Assembly (NCBI RefSeq): GCF_902652985.1
Contig: NC_047021.1
Span: forward strand, 39,990,001-40,054,000
Length of the DNA stretch: 64,000 nt
Reading direction: 5' to 3'
Origin: Pecten maximus
Taxonomy: Eukaryota
Shown: positions 35,001-51,970 of the stretch, one piece after another
Numbering within the stretch: position 1 is the stretch's first letter
How the letters are laid out: each line of letters starts with the position of its first letter
The notes under the pieces: model-generated
The model's input: the letters and a program-made list of their open reading frames with translations, nothing else
What the model was told of the DNA's origin: nothing
Databases searched by the model: none
Program-made: the position numbers and the translations under genes

Positions 35001-38000
35001 ACTGTACACATCGGACCTTAGGTACATAGTATTATATACTGTACACATCGGACCTTAGGTACATAGTATTATATACTGTACACATCGGACCTTAGGTACA
35101 TAGTATTATATACTGTACACATCGGACCTTAGGTACATAGTATTATATTCTGTAAACATCAGACCTTAGGTACATAGTATTATATACTGTACACATCAGA
35201 CCTTAGGTACATAGTATTATATACTGTACACATCGGACCTTAGGTACATAGTATTATATACTGTACACATCGGACCTTAGGTACATAGTATTATATACTG
35301 TACACATCAGACCTTAGGTACATAGTATTATATACTGTACACATCAGACCTTAGGTACATAGTATTATATACTGTACACATCGGACCTTAGGTACATAGT
35401 ATTATATACTGTACACATCGGACCTTAGGTACATAGTATTATATACTGTACACATCGGACCTTAGGTACATAGTATTATATACTGTACACATCAGACCTT
35501 AGGTACATATAGTATTATATACTGTACACATCGGACCTTAGGTACATAGTATTATATACTGTACACATCGGACCTTAGGTACATAGTATTATATACTGTA
35601 CACATCGGACCTTAGGTACATAGTATTATATACTGTACACATCGGACCTTAGGTACACAGTATTATATACTGTACACATCGGACCTTAGGTACATAGTAT
35701 TATATACTGTACACATCGGACCTTAGGTACATAGTATTATATTCTGTAAACATCAGACCTTAGGTACATAGTATTATATACTGTACACATCGGACCTTAG
35801 GTACATAGTATTATATACTGTACACATCAGACCTTAGGTACATAGTATTATATACCATACACATCAGACCTTAGGTACATAGTATTATATACTGTACACA
35901 TCAGACCTTAGGTACATAGTATTATATACTGTACACATCAGACCTTAGGTACATAGTATTATATACTGTACACATCAGACCTTAGGTAAATCATAGTTAA
36001 TAGGATTCCTACATATATACACAGAGAAATCAAATGGCCCTGATACAGCTAGATTTAATATACATCATTCTTATAGCTGTGCTTCATTGTCATTTTTAAA
36101 ATACTAAATGACCTACAATCTAAATCCATACAATATCAATAGTAATCAATCTTTAAATACAATTTCTGAAATATTGTTTTCATCTGTTTGTTATACTAAA
36201 ATTATTAAGACTCCAATGGACTCTCATATAATCATATTGCTATAATCTATGACAGCACATTGTGTTTTGTTTTTTGTTTTTAATTGAACCCAAGGTAAGA
36301 ATAAATATGACTTTAGATTTATGTCATACTGATTTTAATATTGTACGTAAGTTATTCAGGGAAGATTTGTATCATAGTTTGTTTTTATAATCATTTTACG
36401 ATTCATCCACAGCTGAAAGTCATTTAGAGCTAAGTAACACCATGCAGATGATCTGGACAGATTCATAACCACCAAAAAAAAAGTACCTATGAATATTAAA
36501 CATTACACAGATTACAAGGATAAAATGGTCGTTTTCAGCATCATACTGACGTTGTAGAAATTCTGAGGCTCCAACGATCCTGAATTGGAGGTATCCAAAG
36601 TTACGGGCCACATTCCATGCTAGGAAGATGTTTGGAAGAGCCAGAACACAAACTAGAATCATACGCACCTAAAAATTTGTGAAAAATAAAATATGGCGGT
36701 AGTTAATAGTAAATCAGGTCAATAATATGATAAATTGTCCTGAGCCTTTAGGTAACTGACATATTGAATTTACTAAACAAGTTAGATAAATTTCCCTTCT
36801 GCATTCACAAAAGTATGAGATTCTATTTATCACATAAAATCCACTTATAAAATTCATATGACAAAACATAACCTGTTATGTGGTAAATGATTTAATACTA
36901 GTATAAAGATGGTTATTACCAGTTTAAATGTTTTTCTGCCTTTTACATTCACCCCATACTCCACTGTACAGTAAAGGACAACGACGATGATAGCAATGAT
37001 AAGGACATAAAGCTCATAGATCCTTTCACGGAGCGTGCCATGGAATGCGTAGAAAAGACAGAACACTGAAATGAAAGACAACATATATTACCAGAGGTAT
37101 TAGAGAGACGAATAACTGATTTAGCATTAGATTTTGTCTGGCAATACCAAAAATTTCATGGTGCCAAAATAAATTGTTTAAAGTGTATCAGATAATATGA
37201 ATTACCATTATTTCAGATAAAAGTATCATTAATCTATAATATCATACATATGTTAAATATCAGTTGAAGAATAAAACCATTAATGCCACCATCCCATCTT
37301 TCACAGTAATTGCAGAGCTGAACAAAAGGCCCAGAGGGCCTGCATCACTAATCTGGATATTTCACTGATTATAAAGCAAAACACTCCCATTTCAGTTGTA
37401 TATCAAAAATACAGGGACTTTTCTGGCTATTTTGGGTATTGTCAATTGGGTCTTTATCAGGTTTATCTTATGTAGTTTTCGATTATATTTGGAAAAACAC
37501 AAGAATAAAGCTAATACTTTAACAATTTTTTAAAAATGTAAACATCTCAGCATATCAGTGAAATTGGAAATAATCTGCACAGCAATGATATCTGAACAGG
37601 AAAGAACATTCAGGCAAAGTACCAGCATTCTATCATTTATGATTTATAAAGAGTGAAGGTTGAACTCAAGTCGGAATTTCAACTACGGAAATTTACCTGC
37701 ATTGATGAGAAGTAGAAGAGCAAAAGTGAAATCAGGAACCGCTGGGTCATTCCGGATGACTTCGATGAAACTGTACAATGTCAACCCAATGGCTGTCAAT
37801 ATGTTAATAGTGGTCACCAGAAGAAAGGACCACTCTGTACGACTCAGCCCAGCTAAGGTCTTGGTCTGGTAACAAAAGATAAAGATATGACTGTATTGGT
37901 TTTCCTCCAATAACCCCTGGGTCAACAACAAAAATTGACTTAAAGAATTATCGAAGGGGTTGGGTAATTATTCTTAGTAAACATTTGTAATCATCATGCT

Positions 38001-38563
38001 AAAATAATTAGACTCTGAAAGGCTGCTAATTACCACATAATGGAATTGCAATACATATTAAAAGTATTATAAATGAAATAGAAATAAAATCTTTATTTAG
38101 CAATGAAACGGGAGACTGGTTCACTTACATTGTTTCTGTTTCTACCATCAAATTTCATTGATGATTATATTATGTAGGGTGAAGGTTAAAACTAGATTAA
38201 ATCTATTTTCATGAATAAGGTTTGAGAAAACTAAGCACCGACGGGTCGACTGGAATCTTACTGATTTCAATCATGTGATCTCGGTTTGTGAGGGTTAATA
38301 TATTTAACAAGCAATTCCCATCCTGATGCTTATTTTTGTAATTCTTTGGAAAGCTACAATTCCCATCTGAAATATATAGATCCGTACTCGGTAAGGTTCC
38401 AGAAACGAATCGAAAGTAAACTTTATGTAGCCAGGTAAGTTCGTAAGGTTACCTGCCCCCACGACGTAGCTATTGATGTTTTCGGGATATCTGTGATTCC
38501 GTATTTGCTGTAACCTGTTGATTCCTCTTTTTCCTTCGGACGATCGTTTGTTTCTCCTTGCAT
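26059..38563 (-). CDS. Uncharacterised multi-pass membrane protein, 345 aa, about 8 TM (possibly UPF0658 Golgi membrane protein-like)
   Basis: Exons 38563-38453, 37865-37697, 37065-36920, 36668-36551, 33803-33745, 28616-28500, 28344-28258, 28040-27974, 26782-26696, 26135-26059. All GT-AG with compatible phases; 1038 nt with no internal stop. Motifs NFGYLQFRIVGA, LKFD and NFGNGLK recall, from memory, the UPF0658 family. The family call needs an HMM search. Confidence 0.85.
26779..27787. repeat. 34-bp minisatellite containing the exon 9 splice acceptor
   Basis: Unit tacctgtaatcagagatttacatactcctcagaa, with some shorter variants. The first unit overlaps the real acceptor at 26783-26784. Confidence 0.95.
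28727..32535. repeat. 27-bp minisatellite (3.8 kb, intronic)
   Basis: Unit aaagtgagagttagatacagtacagcc. Source of the (VRVRYSTAK)n, (LYLTLTLAV)n and (SNSHFGCTV)n ORFs. Confidence 0.95.
32965..33345. repeat. 47-bp minisatellite, about 8 copies
   Basis: Unit cattctcaaataaaccccaccccagtgtaaaatttgattactgtatt. Confidence 0.85.
34242..35988. repeat. 37-bp highly homogeneous minisatellite
   Basis: Unit ggtacatagtattatatactgtacacatcggacctta. Confidence 0.95.
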
Positions 38564-38601
38564 GGCTTGAAAATAGCAGCACTTATATATCCTACAGTAA
38601 G

Positions 38602-38684
38602 CATCTTCGCTAACCAAGGGTTACTCTACGCTAAGCTCCATTTCACCCTTGGCTTCGTTCATTTCATATTTGACGCCTCCCGCT
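38602..38684 (+). repeat. Left terminal inverted repeat (83 bp)
   Basis: Exact reverse complement of 47792-47874. Confidence 0.95.
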
Positions 38685-38779
38685 ATCGCCACCTAGCGAG
38701 CGCAAGGTTTACCTCCCCTTACAGCAAGTTTCCATTAGCCAATCAAATCGCTTGTACTATCTTGCATCACTTTGCAAAA

Positions 38780-40970
38780 ATGGCTGCGGTCATAGACGAC
38801 TCACTTCGACAGAATCTGTGCGATATTTTCAAAATACATGAACTGAGACCACACCAAAACCGTGCAATTCAAGCTCTTAGTGAAGGAAAGGATGTGTTTA
38901 TAGGTACCAGAACAGGAAGCGGCAAGTCGCTTGCATATGAATGCTATCCACTCGTCTCCAAAGGCGCTATTGTGCTAGTCATTGCTCCGTTAGTAAACAT
39001 TATGTCAGAGCAATGCAAACGGTTGATTGACCATGGATTCAAGGCAACTTATATAGGCAAAGACCACCATGATGATGAGAGAATCGCAGAAGGGTATTAT
39101 GATTTCGTGTTTGGAAGCCCAGAATGTTTTTTAGATGACACAAAGTGGCGCAACATGCTCAAATCGAGTGTTTACCAAGAGAGACTAAAACTGATTGTTG
39201 TTGATGAGGCCCATACCGTGATACAATGGTAAGTGTTAGTATATAATATGTAGTATAATGCAAACACCTGCATACAAATTATATGGGTGTTGATAATTAT
39301 TTAATTAGTTGATATCACTGCAAACAAGTGAGCTTGCAATTGAGTCAGTATATCTAAAAGTACTAACTACAATTTAGTGTGTAACTACAAGTACTAACTA
39401 ATTAATAAGTAACAATACATGTACATGATGTACATGTGTCTCTATTATATTTCAGTAACATAATACTGCTTAATATGTAATGTTATTTTTTTGTACTGGT
39501 TAGGTAATGTATTGTTGATGAGTGAAATATCAATAATCTTATAATAAACAATAAATTATGCAACGACTTAAATGAAGGCCTATTAAAATTTTGTGGAGAA
39601 GTTTTAATTGTTTAACATATGCATTTAATTAAACAAAACTTAATTAAAAAATTGGTTAAGAAGTAACAACTTAAATTGACTGTTATTTGCAATTAAAACA
39701 AGGTGTTAACAAGACGATGTTAAACCTGAACTCTTTCACTCATTCCTGCAACGAAATTGAAATTGCAAATCATATCTAACAATTTTCATAATTTTTCAGG
39801 GGTGAGAGTTTGAAAGGAGAGGATCCGTTCAGGGTGTGTTTTTCAAGGATTGGAGAACTTCGTTCTTTATGCAAAAAAGCTAAAGTCTTAGCACTAACAG
39901 CAACTTCTGGCCCAACACAGAGGAGGAAAATCATGAGGACCCTTTGTTTCCTACCCAATAATGATGTGATTGTTGAATCGCCCGACAGAAATAACATCAA
40001 GATCACTACCATGTGTATTCCAGTTACTCATGACTTGGAAGACACTTTCCGATTCTTACTGAATGATCTTGCAAGATTAAAGGAAAATTTACCAAGGCAT
40101 GTGATCTTTTGTGAAACAATTGTAAATGTTTCAAAGGTTTATTCAATCTTTGTAAAACATTTCGGTCAGGCATGCGAAATGATAAACATGTATCATAGCA
40201 AAACAACAGAGAAAGTAAAAGAAAAAATAAGAAATGATTTGGCAGTAGATGGGAAAATTCGTATTCTGATATGCACAAATTCAGCTGGAATGGGTGTGAA
40301 CTTTTATGGTTTAAACAACATCATTCACTACGGATTGCCACGAGAGATGGACACTTTTGTTCAACAGATGGGTCGAGCTGGACGAGATGGCAATTTTGCA
40401 CATGAACTTGTTTTGTACACTGCCCACAAGAAACATTTAAGTCGCGTTGAAGATGACCTCGTGAAACTTGTGAAGGACGAGTCCCAGTGTAGACACTATT
40501 GCTTATGCCATGCCTATGCGACAAATCATGAACAAATTGAACCAAAACACAATTGTTGTGATGTGTGCCAGAAAATTTGTAAGTGTAGTGAAAGTGTTTG
40601 TCCGCGCCAACATGCAGTATTTGATCTGGAACACACTGATGGTGACAGTACATGTAGTGATGTCATGAAACGGTTGGTGTCTGATGAAGAGAGAAAGTTT
40701 TTGAGAGATAAGCTCTTTGCATTTAAGTTTTCCCTTTGTACACCTTCTCAACCAGAGCTTATTCATGGACTCACAGACAAAGTTATTGAGGATATTGTGC
40801 AAAATTGTGACATTGTATTCACATCAGCTGATATACTCAGTTCATTTGCAATATGGTCATGTGATGTAGCAGTTCAGATTTTTAATATAATTTCTGAAGT
40901 GTTTGGTGAAACAGAAATGCTGGAAATGCCTTTGACAAGTGACAGTGAGGAAGAATCGGAGGACAAATGA
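38780..40970 (+). CDS. Transposon-encoded RecQ-like SF2 (DEAH) DNA helicase, 539 aa
   Basis: Exons 38780-39228 and 39800-40970 (TG|gtaagt..ttcag|G), 1620 nt. Motifs TRTGSGKS, IAPL, VVDEAH, QWG..FR, LTAT, AGMGVN, QQMGRAGRDG, and RQC-type Zn ligands CR..HNCCDVC. Acidic C-terminus. Confidence 0.92.
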
Positions 40971-41403
40971 ATTTGTTTCTACAGAAAGATATGTGACTGA
41001 AATGAAATTTTTTTTTTGTCAATTCCATCTCAGATTTTGGAGTTTCTTAATTAAGAGGCAATTTTTTGCATCACAAGAAATATTACTGATTCTATATTTT
41101 GATATATATATATATAACAATATTAAATCAGCAAATTAAAAAAACTTGCAAGGGCTAAAAATTGCTTCCTGAGATTTTTAGCTATGATACACAGTACACA
41201 AACAATTGTATGCCAGTATGTAAATGTTAAGAAAAGTAAATATAATATTAATGTTTCATATTTGTGTCTTTATTATCTTTATAAACATATACATATCCCT
41301 AATCAGCATACACAGAAAAGTACGATGTAGACATGTTGTGTATTTTGGATCTAGAGCGAAGATCAGGTTACCAAATGCACATGCATACGTTTGTAATCAC
41401 AAA

Positions 41404-44400
41404 TCAAACAATTTCATATGACAAACGTTCCTTTCCTTTGGAAATCCAATCATGAAGTTCATTGATTCTGACACGGGAGTAAATATCAGCAAACTTTGGG
41501 AAAGCATTATACTCTCTTCCATTTATATTGTCCATCACATTTGCTGACTGAAGTTCTTTGACCATCGCAACAATGTCATTCAGTTTCGACACCTCCGGTC
41601 TCTTACTACCGGATACTTTCATATGGCATTCATGCTGTATGTTTTCCTTGATTTCATGTTGCACTTGAGTGGTAAGTGCTGCTCTTCGTGCACTTGCGTA
41701 AGTACAGTTTGCTCCTTGGTCGTGAATTTTTTTTTTAATTTTCTGTACTTGAATCTCGACGAGGTTATCGTTTGGAATATTGTGTCCTATGCCACCGTGT
41801 AAATTTGACGTACAGTTCCATTTGTACTCGTATGACATACGGGGAGAGAGCAATGCGACTATATATGCTAAGAATCGAAATAGCCACAGCTGATATTTGG
41901 TGTGCCTGCCAACATGGGAAAGGAGCAACTGAAATTTTGCATTTTCAGTTATTCTGTCACCATCTGCCATCTTGTATGCGTCGTTTGTATCCCTGAGTAA
42001 AAGAGCACACTTCATAAAAGATCCCCTGTACAGTGCAATACAGTCTTGCATAGAGGATTGTGGGTCACCTACTTCTTTTACCCAATTATGATTAGCTTGT
42101 AAATGTCGTGTCAAATGACCTGTTGTCTTGTATCTTTTTCTGCAATAACAACAATTGTATTTTTCTTCCTCCTTGTTATACATGTTTGCAATTGCATTTT
42201 TCTTGAGATCAAGTTCTGCAGACCTCTGCTGAATATTGTCCAATTCTACAAATAAATGCAAACAGTTTATTACATCATTTTTTTTATTTCAATGTAAACA
42301 AGAGGCCAAGAGAGCCTGCATCACTCACCTGGATATTTCAGTAATTACTGCTAAATGATTTAAGATATATTTAAATATTTTCCCATTTTAAATGCCTCTC
42401 CCAGCAATGGTTCAAAGTACAAATTGACTAAATCCTGTCATTCTTGAAAGTTTTGCTATAATTTCTTTTCTCACACCCCAAGAGTGTCACGTCCTTCATT
42501 TATGCAATATACAACATTGCCAAATAATCTTCAGACCAAATTTTATCAAAATCCATTTAGTTTTTGGGACGAGTAGTGTTTAAAAAGATATACTTTTTGG
42601 GCAAGGTGAGGATAAACATTGTTACCGGGTTAATAATAATATTAAAAAAAGAGGACAATAACTCTGTAAGTTAATGTCAAATGATTTCCATTTTAAAACT
42701 CATTTAGATCTTGTGGATATATTGCATACAGAATTTCATCAAACTCTGTTCACATTTCAAACTTGGTTGATATTTACTCTACTTATTGAGTTCACAAGGT
42801 AATTGTTGATAGACAGACGGATGCCGGAGGCCATTGTATGGCATAAATTCACTTGGTCCTTTGAACCAGGTGAGCTAAAAAATATTTACCAGTTTTAATT
42901 TCTTAAACAGTAATTTACACTCAATTATTGTTACAATAAATCAATATATGTTTTTAATGTATTTTTAAGATTGGCTGTATGATTAACACCAGTTATAAGT
43001 TGTTTTGGCAATATATTATCACGTTATAAACCATAGATGAAGTCTGGATCTGTGTATGTCACAAAAGTTTACATGTAACATAATCAGTATGATTGCAGCT
43101 TGCATTAAAAATGGGTGTCAATATGTACTAACTTATGACAGTACGAACTTATGAGAGACATAAAAATACTTGAGAAAATTAAACCACTTGCCATCAACAC
43201 ATTTGATATATTTATCAAGTATTTCTTCGGCAATAGTGTGGATAAACTGGTATCTCTGTTCATCTCCAAGTGCATCAAAAAGTACTTGTTTCCTTGTGGG
43301 ATCTGATTCCATTTCAGCCATGTCAAGTAAATGCATACATGCTGCAACTATATATGCATCAAGGGTGTCTTCTACAAAGGAGTAGTGTGCCCTGAAAATT
43401 CCAAAGCAGTGTATACATGTATGTGTGAAATTCATACATATACGATAAACTATTGAGTTAAAGATAGTCTTTGTAGATACCTGTAGGTTATTAGCTTAAG
43501 CCTTGTAATACAAATATATGTTTTTAAACAAAATTACCAATATGCATGTGACACTACAGTACATATTTCACCATTTTGTTGAAGCAAAGCTGTTCCTGGG
43601 ACCTCTAATTCATTTTTTGTATCAATATGTAATTACAAATGTATTGTGTAACAAATGCATTTCTACTTAATATAAATTTTTACCTGTATTTTTCAATCAC
43701 CTGATCAGGACCCTGGATATCTACGCGTCCAATGATGTTTCTCAAATTTGCTAGAGTACCCTGGTCTGTCGCTGACTTTATCTTGTAGAATCTTTGATAA
43801 ATGAACTGAATTGAAAGATAAAACAAAAAAAGATTAAATTGTAATCTATACATCTTTGTCATCAATGTGGAAAATACACAAACACATGAATACAATACAC
43901 ATTATTTGAAACTTATCAAAATACTGTATAAGTATATATTATACATTTGTATTTATTTTAATTCAAAACAGATTTAAAAGTTATAAGTTAGGACTGATGT
44001 GATAGTCAAGATTCATAAATATATTGATAAATGTGGACATTTTCACTGAGAGATAATTTTTTTGTACATCTTTTTACTGTTTCAGTTTGTTTTTAACAGT
44101 ATAAAGTTTCATGGAAAAAAAACACACACACAAAAAGAACTTCATTCTAACAAAACTGAGACCTTCCCTGTTATAAGATATATATCACTTGCAGCTTTTA
44201 AAATAACCAAAAATACATTTGTAATAAATATATATTACATACTGTATGTACCCATCCCAGTATGATTTTTGAATTTTTCATAACAGGGAAAGTGAATTTT
44301 GCAACTAATGTAATATACTACAATTCAGATTTTACAAAAGCTTAAAGAGGCTAGTACTTCTCACTCAAGTTTAAAGAACTGAAACAAAGTATAACACTTT

Positions 44401-47400
44401 ATGTGGATGTAATTAGTTAGACCCCCTTGGCTGAAAGACATTCTATAAAAGATAATAACAATCAATGTCAATTTATCTGTGAACTTTTTTAACTTAAAAT
44501 TACCACATGACTCAAATGAGCATATTAAGCCTCTTGGACCTCTTGTAAATTAAAGCCCTTTATGGCAAAAACTGCACAAATGTACAGTATTTTAACAAAT
44601 TAACTTTCTTAAATTCTATCTATTTTCTAACAAAAGTGAATAACTGAAACAATATTAGTTAACTATTATAAACTGACACTAAGTTAATTCCTAGAAAAAA
44701 TAACACATGCCTTTTCATAACAGAACAGAATCAATTGCTATGAACTCTGATACCAATAGCAGGTTCATCATCCTATGTAGGCCTTCAGGTCTGTGAATGA
44801 CACCTGCCAGTCTTTCATAATCTGTTGGACTGTTCAACATGGCTAACTGAGCTGAATAAGCTCGCTCATTGGTTAAGACATCACCACCAAATACTTTTCT
44901 TTGGATGACTGTTGGATTTTCGTCTTTGGTATGTGGCACATACTTCTCATGTACATGCTCCAATATGGAAATCATGTCCTCGGACTTATTTTCACTTTTA
45001 TCAAGTAAGTCAAGAATAGAATAATCTGACTTTTTTGACGTTTCTTTAATATGAGGGTTAGACAGCCACTTTGGAAGACAATCACTGTATTTTTTGAAAC
45101 AGACTAAGTATTTCGCCATTACCTTCATTATATGGTAAATGAAGTGTTCGTCCAATGTTTTGCATTCTGTTGTGTTTGGTACAAATTTGCTGTTTTCAAT
45201 GCCCATTATATCCGATATTGGACCACTGTCATCTAAAGTAGTGTTCAGAACTCTTTTCTCAACACCAACCAAAAGGAACCAATGCCAGCTTTGCCTCTTC
45301 CTGTCTTTGGTCATCTGTGATGGACTACGCGTTATATCGATATTGTCTCCAATAATTTCAGAACATTTAAGTTCATCTCTTAACATACCTGAGGGAGCTT
45401 CAAGTTCTTCCTTCTCCTCCATCATCAACGCCTTGGTATGGACTAACTGTCTCTCCACCAGTTCCTTCTTTGTTCTGGTCATTGCAGATGTAGACACACA
45501 CATTCCAAGTTTGTTGAGAATAGAAATGGTCTTAAATGAAAGAAAAATATAACTTCATTTCTTCAGTAACAATGTACAAGTACATATAAGTATTTTAACA
45601 TAACAGCAGTATTCAATTAGAAAACCAGTGTGAATGCAGATGAAAAAGTGATTTTAGCAAAACCAATAAAATAGCATAAATATAAATGCTATTATCAATA
45701 ATGTCTTTGTTTTAATTTTTTTTTTCTAACAAACCCTTAATATTGTACAGTTAATGTGTGGGACCTAGTGATGGTTGAAAAAGATTCCTTAAGTTGCTAA
45801 AAAAGAAGAGTCTATGGCAGCCATCTTGGATTTCAGAATTTGCCAAAAAACTTTGTGTATTCTTTTGATTTTTAGTTTGAAGTTTTTCTGTCTTTCTATT
45901 ATGATTATTTCTTTATAAATGATAAAATTAAACATTGAAAACACTGACTCTGCAAAATGATGGGCAAATATTAACTTAAGTAACATACTTCAGTCATTGG
46001 CATGGATGAGTGAAAATTACAGGTAGTACAATCTTCAGTGGCATATATGTATATATCTGCCTGAAATTATGTACGGCAACACTTAATGTACAAAAGTTCC
46101 TCATGTTTATAACAAACCTCATCAGTAGCTCCACTATGGTCCAAAATTTGGCTGATAACATGTTGAAAAGCAGTCATGTGTTTATTATGAAACTTCAATG
46201 AAATCGCAGAGACAACAGCTGTTCCAATGGCAGAGTCTTTCACAATCGTTGAGATACATTCATGAAAAAAGGGTGCCCAAATCTTGATTTCTGTATTAAG
46301 ATTTGCAAATTTGAATGTTCCTAAACTTTTGCTATCATTTCTTCTTAGCACTGACATGTTCAGGGTCGATGTTAATTTGGTTATTTCATTTCTTATCTCT
46401 TTCAAGACTCTTTTGGTAACAGCTTCCTTCAATGTAGACTCCATTATGATTTTAGCAGTTCTGTCCTTTGAATTATGCATTGCAATATTTTTGATAATTT
46501 GCTTTGACTTTCCATCCTGAACCACTTTTGCTCTTATCTTTGAGTCTTTTTTTGTTCTAAACATGACCTGAAACAAAATAAGAAATGCATATCTATGAGA
46601 TTAAAAAAGTGTGGCAGAATGTTCCATGTACAAAACAATACCCATGTATGTATTGTATGGTAACAAAATTTGAAATATAGATATAATGATTATAAATCTA
46701 TTTCATCTAATTAAATTTACATGTGTATATACATGTGCATGACTGTTTATACATGCACACATGTATTTTCATGCTCAATATGTATATACATGTATGTGCA
46801 TGACTACTGTACATATATGTATACATGACTGTATATACATATATGTATTCATGACTGTATATACATATTATTCATGACTGCAGAGACATATATACAGAGT
46901 ATACATACATATATGTCTATAATGAATGTATATACATGTACATATGAGTACACATTTACATATTGTACATCACTGTGTATCCTTGACTGTATAAACGTGT
47001 GCATGGCCGTGAATATGTACATGCATTTTATATTTGTACCGTTTAAATAGTAGATTTTAATAGTAAATTTACGCAGTGAACCAAAAATGTTCAATCCTCA
47101 AGTTTTTGACAGATTAGAATAATACATCTGACTATTAATATTAGTTATCTACTTTACCTTCACTTTGTTTGGAGAAAATGATGTCTTTAACTTCACTCTT
47201 GACTCAGGCATATTGTCTGCTATTGCCGTCGAACCCGATGCATGGACCATGACCATTTGCTTGGGAGTATCACTAGTACTTATGGAAGTCATGTCAGGTG
47301 TCGTGCGTGTCTTAGTAGGGGTCTTAAACAACGCTTTTTTTGTTTTTCTTGGTGTTGGCGAATGTAACATAACTCGTTTTTTGTGACTGCGTACTGGTGT

Positions 47401-47709
47401 TACAGGTGGTTTTTGTATTTGCCTGGCATTTTTAAGTTTTTCCTTCAAAGCCGAGATGATAGTTATTTTTTCCGATCTCAAAGCATCCAGCTTGTGCATT
47501 AGATCGTAATCGATTTTGTGCAGTTTATTCAACTTATTGAAGCAAAACCCGCATACAAATCTCGATAAACCGTCGTTTGGTTTAGCGACATAGCTTAGTA
47601 CCTGTGACAGCTGGTCAAAAACCCCAAATGTATCGCCAAATACCGTCCGTCTTTGCTTTTTAGTCAATATTTCCCCACAAACGCGACAGTCGTCGATGGG
47701 TGCAGCCAT
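41404..47709 (-). CDS. Academ-type transposase (DUF6589-like core) with an N-terminal C2C2 Zn domain and an internal C2H2 finger, 980 aa
   Basis: Exons 47709-47158, 46567-46118, 45530-44754, 43805-43684, 43391-43192 (GC donor), 42245-41404; 2943 nt, open throughout. Motifs CRVC..CGFC, LNKLGMCVS, IIGDNID, GGDVLT, PEGLH, CCYC..H..H, NIPNDNLVE. Confidence 0.85.
42297..42881 (-). mobile_element. HINE/Helentron-like element nested in transposase intron 5
   Basis: aacaagaggcc..gcc..ctcacctgg at one end; gacagacgg microsatellite remnant and hairpin tcacttggt..accaggtgagctaaaaa at the other. A related end occurs at 37321. Confidence 0.7.
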
Positions 47710-47791
47710 GTTTGTTATGATTTTTGGCCTGTGCTGTATTCCGCGTTACGATTGGTGCACGCAAAATGCTGTGCATCCAATCAAAACGTGC

Positions 47792-47874
47792 AGCGGGAGG
47801 CGTCAAATATGAAATGAACGAAGCCAAGGGTGAAATGGAGCTTAGCGTAGAGTAACCCTTGGTTAGCGAAGATG
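47792..47874 (-). repeat. Right terminal inverted repeat (83 bp)
   Basis: Exact reverse complement of 38602-38684. Confidence 0.95.
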
Positions 47875-48470
47875 ACAGTAAGGGGCAGACGCTGCAAGTC
47901 ATGTGAAAATGACACACATCTGTCACAAAAGCGCTTGCATCGTAGAAGCAGCGATGCAAACTTTTCCAAGATGCAGATATCACTTATTTCGGATGTTTCT
48001 AGATTTATCCAATCCTTAATGCTTTTGTTTCGACAGTTGCGCGGGAATAAGCACGGACTAAACCCGTGGCAAGAGGTAAGAACTCATGCAGCTAAATTTT
48101 ACTTTGAGGGACCGACAATCTTATCATTATTTAACGCAATTTACTTTAATTACTGTAAAGAGTTATACAAATTCTGAGGAATGTTTATAGGCGAATATTT
48201 CATTTTAGCCATTTTCTAAACAAACTTTTCATTTTATTCTTTTTTTTTTAAATTATTTATAACTAATATTAATGATTTTACAAATAACAGTGTATTGACT
48301 TTTGAAAATTCTCACATATAGAATCTAGACCTATAATATATTACAGAAGCCAAACTGTGACGTTTTTTTTGGTTGGGGGGGGGGGGGGGGGTGTAATTAT
48401 GTACCATTGGTAACTTCGTCTAGCTGATTCAGAAAATAAATACCATGTTGAATACATTCAAGCTCTTCAA

Positions 48471-50564: not shown

Positions 50565-51970
50565 GTATGGCAAGCCGACTCTATTTAATTAGAGATATCT
50601 GTAATTTAAATAAAGATATCTCTATTTAAATAAAGATATGTCTAATTTAAATACAGATATCTCTATTTCTACTGAAAATAGAGATATCTTCTTTTAAATT
50701 ACAGATATCTCTATTTCAAATTCAGATATCTCTATTTGAATTACAGATATCTTTAATTCAAATAGAGATATCTGTATTTGAAATAAAGATATCTGTATTT
50801 CTACAACAATTAAAGATATCTTTATTTAAAATAGAGATATCTCTATTTGAATTAAAGATATCCCTATTTTAAATAGATATCTTTAATTTTGTTTAAATAG
50901 AGATGTCTTCATTTTAAATACAGATATCTCTAATTCAAATACAGATATCTCTAATTCAATTAAAGATATCTCTATTTTAAATAGAGATATCTTTAATTGA
51001 ATTAGAGATATCTGCAATTACTTTGCAATACAGATATCTCTATTTCAAATACAGATATCTCTATTTGAATTAAAGATATCTGTATTTACACGTGTTTGCT
51101 CAGTGCGAAGATTAATATTGAAACACAAAGAAAATAATGATTACTCCCTAATCCTGATCAGTGTTAACGAAACGCTTGTAATTACTGTAAATTGGACTAT
51201 CCGGATCCCATATGCATGCATGAGAGATGTAGGTCTAAACCGATAAACTTGCTACTTGGAGGGGATTTCTAAAGAACAGAACATGGCAACTGTTCTACGG
51301 GAAATAGAGCGAACTGTTGCGGCTATACGCAGTACCATTGAAAGCAGCACACGGTCTGCATTTCCCGCCATTTTGCGTCACTAGTGCTTTACTTCCGTCG
51401 TGCGCAAAAGGGAGAATCAAGGGAGCAGTCGTTTTTCCTATTTGATGGTTAAATACAGATATCTCTATTTCATGTCAAATAAGGATGTCTTTAATTCAAA
51501 TAGAGATATCTGTATTTAAAATAAAAATATCTGTATTTCTACAACAATTAGAGATATCTGTATTTGAAATAGAGATATCTTTAATTGAATTAGAGATATC
51601 TGTATTTGAATTAGAGATATCTGTATTTGAATTAAAGATATCTTTATTTTAAATACAGATATCTTTATTTACAATGAAATGCAGATATTTCTAATTAAAA
51701 TAAAGATATCTTTAATTGAATTAGAGATATCTGTATTTGAATTAGAGATATCTCTATTTCGTGTTTAATTAGAGATATCTGTATTTTAAATAAAGATATC
51801 TCTAATTCAAATACAGATATCTCTAATTCAATTAAAGATATCTCTATTTAAATTAAAGATATTTCTATTTGAATTAAAGATATCTTTAATTTCTATATTA
51901 ATAATGATATCTTTATTTTGAATACAGATATCTGTATTTAATAGGTAAAAACCCAAACGGCTTGCCATAC
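50565..51970. mobile_element. Non-autonomous foldback-like DNA transposon with GATATC-core subterminal arrays
   Basis: TIR gtatggcaagccg/cggcttgccatac; 4-bp TSD ACCT at 50561-50564 and 51971-51974. Two arms of about 500 bp made of about 21-bp aaatacagatatctctaattc units in both orientations surround a unique core (about 51090-51450). Confidence 0.8.

What the first reader, a model, noticed from the sequence alone, without database searches (positions are those of the whole stretch)
38602..47874. Intact, young helicase-carrying DNA transposon (AcademH-like) with an atypical 8-bp TSD
Seen: perfect 83-bp TIRs, a perfect TSD, and two uninterrupted spliced ORFs pointing inward from the termini: a RecQ-like helicase with all SF2 motifs and the Zn site, and a 980-aa transposase with candidate catalytic acidic motifs (GDNID, GGDVLT, DNLVE). 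Established: AcademH elements pair an Academ transposase with a RecQ-like helicase and are reported with 9-10-bp TSDs; as far as I know the helicase's role is untested. Here the duplication is 8 bp (ACAGTAAG) and extension by one base mismatches on either side. Inference: a potentially active member, possibly of a distinct sublineage, and a good substrate for testing helicase-assisted transposition.
Basis: partly seen in the sequence, partly recalled or inferred. Interest (0 to 1): 0.75.

Follow-up and report, generated by a model that had tools for sequence, protein, structure and literature searches.

The report
Helicase transposon leaving 45-base end scars
This is a real, young jumping gene with its own DNA-unwinding enzyme; its 8-base target copy is only a rare variant of the usual 9, but its relatives leave tiny scars holding about 45 bases of each end, which likely means it cuts itself out with a very long offset that the enzyme would unwind, and the RNA found for its cutting enzyme is spliced so that the active site is dropped.

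Summary
The element is real: 83/83-bp TIRs, 8-bp TSD, a 539-aa RecQ helicase and a 980-aa DUF6589 transposase frame. The 8-bp sublineage idea fails. Both sister copies have 9-bp TSDs, and 85 of 100 further related two-ended elements are 9 bp, 5 are 8 bp.

Two other features matter more.

(1) RNA contigs of 4 of 4 runs join a strong donor upstream of the first candidate catalytic Asp straight to exon 4. This removes two candidate catalytic aspartates and gives a 414-aa product. The same join appears in a second family (2 of 4 runs) and in an oyster RefSeq isoform.

(2) Three families have dozens of tiny TSD-flanked remnants whose arms stop at TIR base 45-46, just before an inner CCTTGG motif. 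I predicted this for the third family and found it at 14 of 14 loci. The remnants resemble P-element excision scars (17 nt), and a homolog's predicted fold matches P transposase best.

Inferred mechanism: a ~45-nt staggered cut that the helicase unwinds, throttled by splicing. No cut was observed and no element/scar allele pair was found. The scan noted AcademH elements and P-type scars separately in other genomes.

The parts
38594..38601 (+). left target-site duplication (8 bp)
   Evidence: empty allele with one copy in run X11
38602..38684 (+). left TIR, 83 bp; outer CCAAGG at TIR 13-18 and inner inverted CCTTGG at TIR 46-51
38646..38647 (+). boundary (TIR base 45/46) where arms of tiny remnants stop; predicted nick on the non-transferred strand (mirror position 47830/47829)
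   Evidence: arm lengths; the nick itself is inferred
38780..39228 (+). RecQ-like helicase exon 1 (Walker A, DEAH)
39800..40970 (+). RecQ-like helicase exon 2 (motifs III-VI, Cys-rich Zn site); protein 539 aa
41404..42245 (-). transposase exon 6 (C2H2-like finger, DNLVE with D860/E864)
43192..43391 (-). transposase exon 5 (followed by a GC-AG intron)
   Evidence: 4 of 4 runs
43684..43805 (-). transposase exon 4; read in the +1 frame in the short isoform, stop after residue 414
44754..45388 (-). catalytic-core segment of exon 3 (GDNID D396, GGDVLT D551, PEGLH E583/H586); 635 nt skipped in the RNA seen; ends at a weak donor (4/9 match to the U1 consensus)
45389..45530 (-). constitutive part of exon 3, ending at a strong internal phase-1 donor (8/9)
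46118..46567 (-). transposase exon 2
47158..47709 (-). transposase exon 1 (zf-AD)
47792..47874 (-). right TIR, 83 bp
47875..47882 (+). right target-site duplication (8 bp)
37698..38601 (-). host gene whose first exon is interrupted: exon 38453-38601 with ATG at 38563, spliced to exon 37698-37865 (hydrophobic; weak DUF7789, E 0.011, below cut-off)

Best explanation
A young, intact AcademH-type cut-and-paste transposon of a 9-bp-TSD family, which likely excises like a P element but with a predicted ~45-nt stagger that its RecQ helicase would unwind, and whose transposase is likely held down by a splice that drops the catalytic core. SHOWN: the anatomy; 9-bp TSD as the family rule; the core-skipping join; remnant arms capped at base 45-46. 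INFERRED steps: (1) transposase binds the CCAAGG/CCTTGG motif pair in each TIR; (2) it cuts the transferred strand at the tip and the other strand just before the inner motif; (3) the 45-bp duplex between the nicks (calculated Tm about 75 C) cannot melt unaided, so the 3'-5' helicase separates it; (4) the element inserts with a 9-bp, rarely 8-bp, stagger; (5) the donor keeps two 45-nt 3' tails whose end-joining leaves TSD + up to 45 + up to 45 + TSD scars; (6) full-length mRNA needs the weak downstream donor and is probably rare or germline-limited, while the short mRNA is degraded or makes a zf-AD-bearing repressor.
For: TSD: 7 of 8 full-length copies in three families are 9 bp; 85 of 100 smaller two-ended elements 9 bp, 5 8 bp, 0 10 bp, 10 uncalled. 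Arm cap: longer arm is 42-47 bp in 25 of 26 window-family remnants (only 1 of 52 arms over 47, TIR 83 bp) and 12 of 19 in family 3; BLAST ranking favoured longer arms, which works against the cap. Prospective test in family 2: 14 loci, gaps 0 (8), 1 (3), 2 (2), 18 (1, a templated duplication); reversed-pattern control 0. The cap moves with the inner motif: 46 gives 45, 47 gives 46. Window remnants show 22 distinct geometries in 26: 7 blunt, 7 microhomology, 12 with inserts. Both TIR variants of the parents recur among remnants. The amplified 479-bp MITE is uniform and keeps the inner motif; most remnants lack it. P(wa) repair products have the same form with 17 nt (PMC2895639, passages). A homolog's model matches P transposase best: Z 10.2, rmsd 6.3, 365 aligned; Hermes 8.8. 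Splice: 4 of 4 runs; family 3 in 2 of 4 runs, the other two lacking cover; Ostrea edulis XP_056022455.1 ends with the same +1-frame exon-4 peptide; family 2 has a 7/9 donor at the same place.
Against: No cut, end or excision was observed. No locus was found with element and scar as alleles (0 of 4 flank searches). Eight family-2 loci share the exact 45|45 join, which a mobile 90-bp family would also give. 4 of 38 family-3 arms exceed 47 bp. The fold match is moderate, within about 1.5 Z of Hermes, and Foldseek gave no E<=0.001 hit. RNA data are contigs of unknown tissue that drop rare forms; one X6 contig (44899-45418) reads through the short donor into the core. RNA support for the oyster isoform was not checked. 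The window protein has N at a His that is invariant in 29 of 29 homologs (residue 492), shared by all three copies. The defining paper (Kojima 2020) could not be read.
Confidence: 0.55

Rival explanations
1. The tiny elements are remnants of abortive gap repair (SDSA). After a near-blunt excision, copying from the sister stalls at transposase bound to the inner motif, or at the 13-18/46-51 hairpin, and the ends are joined. The helicase does something else, such as target capture or complex disassembly.
For: Some remnants have one arm at the cap and one much longer (L009 45+~74; L091 69+44). The 62-64-bp remnants use the inner/outer motif microhomology. Incomplete synthesis plus end-joining is the usual outcome after P excision (PMC2895639).
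Against: The outer copy of the same motif would be met first. A stall should be broad, yet 25 of 46 family-2 arms are exactly 45 and many joins are blunt 45|45 with no microhomology. One-long-arm products also follow from a 45-nt tail extended on one side.
Confidence: 0.2
2. The tiny elements are a mobile ~90-bp palindromic MITE class (a minimal substrate) whose copies later lost bases at the hairpin centre.
For: Exact 90-92-bp palindromes occur at several unrelated TSDs. That perfect palindromes are unstable at the centre is established knowledge (recalled).
Against: It needs the same breakpoint to arise in three families and in at least two TIR variants of families 2 and 3, so it still requires a defined break at the inner motif. 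It cannot yield remnants with an arm over 47. The true MITE is uniform in length while remnants are not. Nine identical or near-identical family-3 copies share one TSD, so they were carried by another repeat.
Confidence: 0.17
3. A distinct 8-bp-TSD sublineage of AcademH.
For: The window TSD is a true 8-bp duplication.
Against: Its 99.4%-identical sisters have 9-bp TSDs; 8 bp is 5 of 100 across families.
Confidence: 0.02
4. The core-skipping join is an accidental cryptic donor, or it means the family is now dead, rather than regulation.
For: The full-length join was seen in 0 of 4 window-family runs and 0 of 4 family-3 runs. The short mRNA has a premature stop upstream of two introns.
Against: A phase-1 donor a few codons before the first candidate catalytic Asp is kept in three families with 59-67% protein identity and in an oyster, even after an extra intron in family 3. 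The families moved recently (0.2-0.6% divergence). Mizuhopecten RefSeq models carry the long join.
Confidence: 0.2

Closest known systems
AcademH lineage of Academ (Kojima 2020, Mob DNA 11:15; not held, known only from citing passages in PMC10045372 and PMC10799480)
   Same: DDE-type transposase plus RecQ-like helicase, TIRs, 9-bp TSD; bivalve-rich superfamily (PMC10294476, passages).
   Different: About 5% of insertions are 8 bp and none 10 bp here. The 45-capped remnants and the core-skipping splice were not found in print; Kojima 2020 itself and Repbase entries were unseen and may describe short non-autonomous forms.
Drosophila P element (review PMC7776569, passages; PMC2895639, passages)
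   Same: Best structural match for the transposase. Donor scars made of capped TIR stubs between TSDs, with microhomologies and templated inserts. Splicing yields a truncated, non-catalytic product.
   Different: 17-nt stagger, 8-bp TSD, THAP domain, GTP cofactor, no helicase; control is by intron retention. Here the cap is 45-46 nt, the N-terminus is zf-AD and control is by an alternative 5' donor inside the exon.
KolobokH and Kolobok-1_CCri (PMC9587614, passages)
   Same: DDE transposase with a RecQ helicase, in one case on the opposite strand.
   Different: KolobokH is reported only from fungi. The Kolobok TTAA target rule is recalled, not from a call; here TSDs are unrelated 9-mers.
AcademX
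   Same: Same superfamily.
   Different: Encodes a nuclease and makes 3-4-bp TSDs (PMC10045372, passage).

Membership tests
AcademH | Encodes a RecQ-like helicase | tested here: met
   DEAD + Helicase_C; WRN/RecQ/BLM best PDB hits; spliced in RNA
AcademH | 9-10-bp TSD | tested here: met
   Family level: 7 of 8 full-length copies and 85 of 100 others are 9 bp. The window copy alone is 8 bp.
AcademH | RNase H-like DDE transposase with TIRs | tested here: met
   Conserved D396, D551, E864; fold like P/Hermes/RAG1; 83-bp TIRs
AcademH | Transposase groups with Repbase Academ proteins in a tree or profile | not testable with these tools
   No Repbase or Academ profile held. Pfam gives DUF6589 only; the link DUF6589 = Academ is recalled and echoed in an unchecked scan note.
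P superfamily | N-terminal THAP domain | tested here: not met
   Pfam finds zf-AD, no THAP, in exon 1 and in full-length homologs
P superfamily | 8-bp (7-8) TSD as the rule | tested here: not met
   9 bp is the rule
P superfamily (works-like) | Long staggered cleavage leaving TIR tails on the donor | tested here: inconclusive
   Scar pattern fits with 45-46 nt; cleavage not observed; no allele pair
KolobokH | TTAA-type target duplication (recalled) | tested here: not met
   TSDs are diverse 9-mers

The most novel reading that the evidence does not exclude
AcademH elements excise by a helicase-dependent ~45-nt staggered cut, nearly three times the P-element stagger that reviews call unusually long. 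The second nick is set by an inverted inner motif in the TIR, and the element's own RecQ peels the 45-bp duplex. A splice switch conserved across bivalve families removes the active site by default, a convergent counterpart of P-element splicing control.
Probability: 0.45. Interest if true: 0.88.

Novelty: new member of a known kind. Interest (0 to 1): 0.72.

Why it matters
No role for the AcademH helicase was found in the papers searched; the IS481EU paper only links it loosely to TSD length. The scars give a base-precise prediction (second nick at TIR 45/46) and a reason to need a helicase. Both can be tested with this copy, the only one of three with both frames intact. The splice finding warns that a cDNA from ordinary RNA would give a dead 414-aa protein, so assays need the long isoform. 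It also adds a second, independent case of splice-limited transposase.

Tried and rejected
8-bp sublineage: rejected.

A shifted boundary giving a 9-bp TSD: none within +/-4 bases.

An extra exon near 42760-42875: it has an open frame but is skipped by the RNA join 42245-43192; the region matches other repeats.

A non-canonical GT-AA intron in family 3: it is a private change in the C14 copy; 3 of 4 copies have AG.

Allele pairs (element vs scar) through four unplaced contigs: nothing usable. One met an assembly gap and three lay in repeats or had no partner.

Foldseek on the whole model: no E<=0.001 hit.

Lack of contig cover over 44572-44901 in the RNA runs is not taken as evidence; only the joins are.

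No labelled transposase tree was built, for lack of Repbase references.

Kojima 2020 and one further paper id were not held. Supplements of these, and curated bivalve TE libraries (PMC10294476 supplements, not opened), may already list the tiny elements.

Full report
OBSERVATION. The element spans 38602-47874. Its TIRs are 83/83 identical and an 8-bp duplication flanks it; no other length from 2 to 14 and no shifted boundary gives a longer one. An RNA contig from run X11 crosses the empty site with one copy of the 8-mer (13 nt beyond it, one contig). So the insertion is probably polymorphic and the 8 bp is real. The helicase (539 aa, two exons) is RecQ-like. The transposase frame (980 aa, six exons) has zf-AD, DUF6589 and conserved acidic residues D396, D551, D860, E864. 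Named homologs are mostly from bivalves, with lancelets and a hemichordate further down, at 32-78% local identity over exon 3.

COPIES AND TSD. The genome holds three full-length copies with identical TIRs, each 52 substitutions from the window copy over about 9,230 bases. The sisters have 9-bp TSDs. One has a 4-bp deletion late in the helicase, the other a 1-bp deletion in transposase exon 5, so only the window copy keeps both frames. Two related helicase-transposase families were found: family 3 with four copies and family 2 with one; all five have 9-bp TSDs. Of 100 further two-ended elements, 66 have exact and 19 one-mismatch 9-bp TSDs, 5 are 8 bp (one ambiguous, one with a mismatch), none 10 or 11 bp, and 10 could not be called. 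Before this count I dropped duplicate loci, copies sharing one TSD, loci with only one recognisable end and one remnant of another family. The searches score only the best 40 candidates, so these are samples. The 8-bp TSD is a minority product of a 9-bp enzyme.

SPLICING. Four RNA or RNA-like runs were laid on the element (one is RNA on record, two are guessed, one unlabelled; all are contigs). The helicase intron and four transposase introns match the model. The fifth does not: all four runs join 45389 to 43805, and none joins 44754 to 43805. This removes 635 nt with the first two candidate catalytic aspartates, shifts the frame and ends the protein at 414 aa. The donor used matches the U1 consensus (recalled) at 8 of 9 places, the unused one at 4 of 9. 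Family 3 has an extra intron there, yet two runs again join a phase-1 donor just before the GDN motif to exon 4, predicting about 395 aa. The other two runs had no cover there, and the long join was not seen. An Ostrea edulis RefSeq isoform ends in the matching +1-frame peptide (XP_056022455.1); its RNA support was not checked. Family 2 has a 7/9 donor at the same spot, untested by RNA. Against over-reading: contigs drop rare forms, tissues are unknown, one X6 contig reads through into the core, and Mizuhopecten models carry the long join. P elements restrict transposase by splicing and make a truncated repressor (PMC7776569, passages). I infer a convergent throttle here; decay versus repressor is open.

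TINY REMNANTS. The TIR search returned many 56-170-bp elements made only of two TIR stubs between TSDs. In 25 of 26 the longer arm is 42-47 bp although the TIR is 83 bp. A uniform-breakpoint null gives p about 1e-27, a crude null. Family 3, with a different TIR, shows the same cap one base further in: 12 of 19, with 4 of 38 arms longer. In each family the cap sits just before an inverted copy (CCTTGG) of the motif at TIR base 13. I then predicted the cap for family 2, whose TIR search gave 1,070 candidates and whose sampled copies were mostly a uniform 479-bp MITE. A pattern allowing 0-19 extra bases beyond base 45 found 14 loci: 8 with none, 3 with one, 2 with two and 1 with an 18-nt templated duplication; the control found 0. 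A second pattern gave 100 loci against 20 control; only the first 50 were listed, about half of them unrelated repeats, and 15 were fetched. That pattern limits arm sums to 93, so its arm counts are partly forced. Junctions are heterogeneous (22 geometries in 26), with microhomologies and templated inserts, and both parental TIR variants recur.

MECHANISM. P-element excision leaves 17-nt 3' tails on the donor, and end-joining gives TSD + up to 17 + up to 17 + TSD with microhomologies and templated inserts (PMC2895639, passages; PMC7776569). The remnants here have that form with 45-46. An AlphaFold model of a pearl-oyster homolog (pLDDT 75; the window protein itself was not folded) matches P transposase best: Z 10.2, rmsd 6.3, 365 aligned; then Hermes 8.8, ISCth4 6.8, RAG1 5.4. 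A 45-bp duplex (calculated Tm about 75 C against 55 C for the first 17 bp) would hold flank and element together after nicking, which gives a 3'-5' RecQ a job. The nick and the helicase's role are inferred. Stalled gap repair and a mobile 90-mer remain live rivals. Four searches for an element/scar allele pair failed.

CONTEXT. The element sits 31-38 nt upstream of the ATG of a spliced host gene on the minus strand. The empty-allele contig continues on the far side, so the insertion splits the first exon.

KNOWN AND NEW. It meets the AcademH features I could test, known second-hand because Kojima 2020 is not held; phylogenetic membership was not testable. Searches (listings and abstracts; passages only for PMC10045372, PMC5751038, PMC10799480, PMC8290104, PMC10294476, PMC9587614, PMC7776569, PMC10983969, PMC2895639) showed no report of Academ excision scars or splice control. 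Scan notes describe AcademH elements and P-type scars separately in other genomes; I had formed both ideas before seeing them.

VERDICT. An ordinary member by anatomy, not an 8-bp sublineage, but a useful one: interest 0.72; mechanism 0.55.

Noticed in passing
window 37698-38601 (-): The element interrupts the first exon of a transcribed host membrane-protein gene 31-38 nt before its ATG, so the insertion allele may cut the gene from its promoter.
   Followed up: partly
window 40970-41404: Helicase and transposase transcripts converge; contigs of X6 and X11 run across the gap, so 3' UTRs may overlap and could form double-stranded RNA (contigs cannot show strand).
   Followed up: no
G000:C10:29640094-29640184 and eight other loci (L110-L113, L115-L118 and C4:30814185-30814269): One family-3 remnant with the same TSD recurs at many places, so it was copied inside another repeat.
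   Followed up: no
L126-L150, e.g. G000:C5:39840472: A uniform 479-bp MITE with family-2 ends, 1,070 candidate end matches, mostly 9-bp TSDs; its only autonomous relative found (C3) has frameshifts.
   Followed up: partly
G000:C14:7076097-7087629 (L100/L098): An 11.5-kb element with related TIRs whose inner motif lies at base 48; it predicts a cap at 47. No own remnants were identified.
   Followed up: partly
G000:C16 copy, at window-equivalent 42644 and 46831: Carries 530-bp and 871-bp insertions in introns.
   Followed up: no
window 42299-42860: Intron 5 holds fragments of a high-copy repeat (very high contig depth, many loose ends).
   Followed up: no
L203 (G000:C3076): A 90-bp remnant with three substitutions mirrored on both arms: arm-to-arm conversion or a separate parent.
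   Followed up: no
G000 C17, C16, C8, C4 and others (L056-L067): More distant DUF6589-type transposase hits (26-36% identity), probably other Academ families.
   Followed up: no
window 6257-35988 and 50579-51939: Many long minisatellite arrays (23-155-bp units; a 27-bp unit x141) and an inverted array of a 21-bp unit.
   Followed up: no
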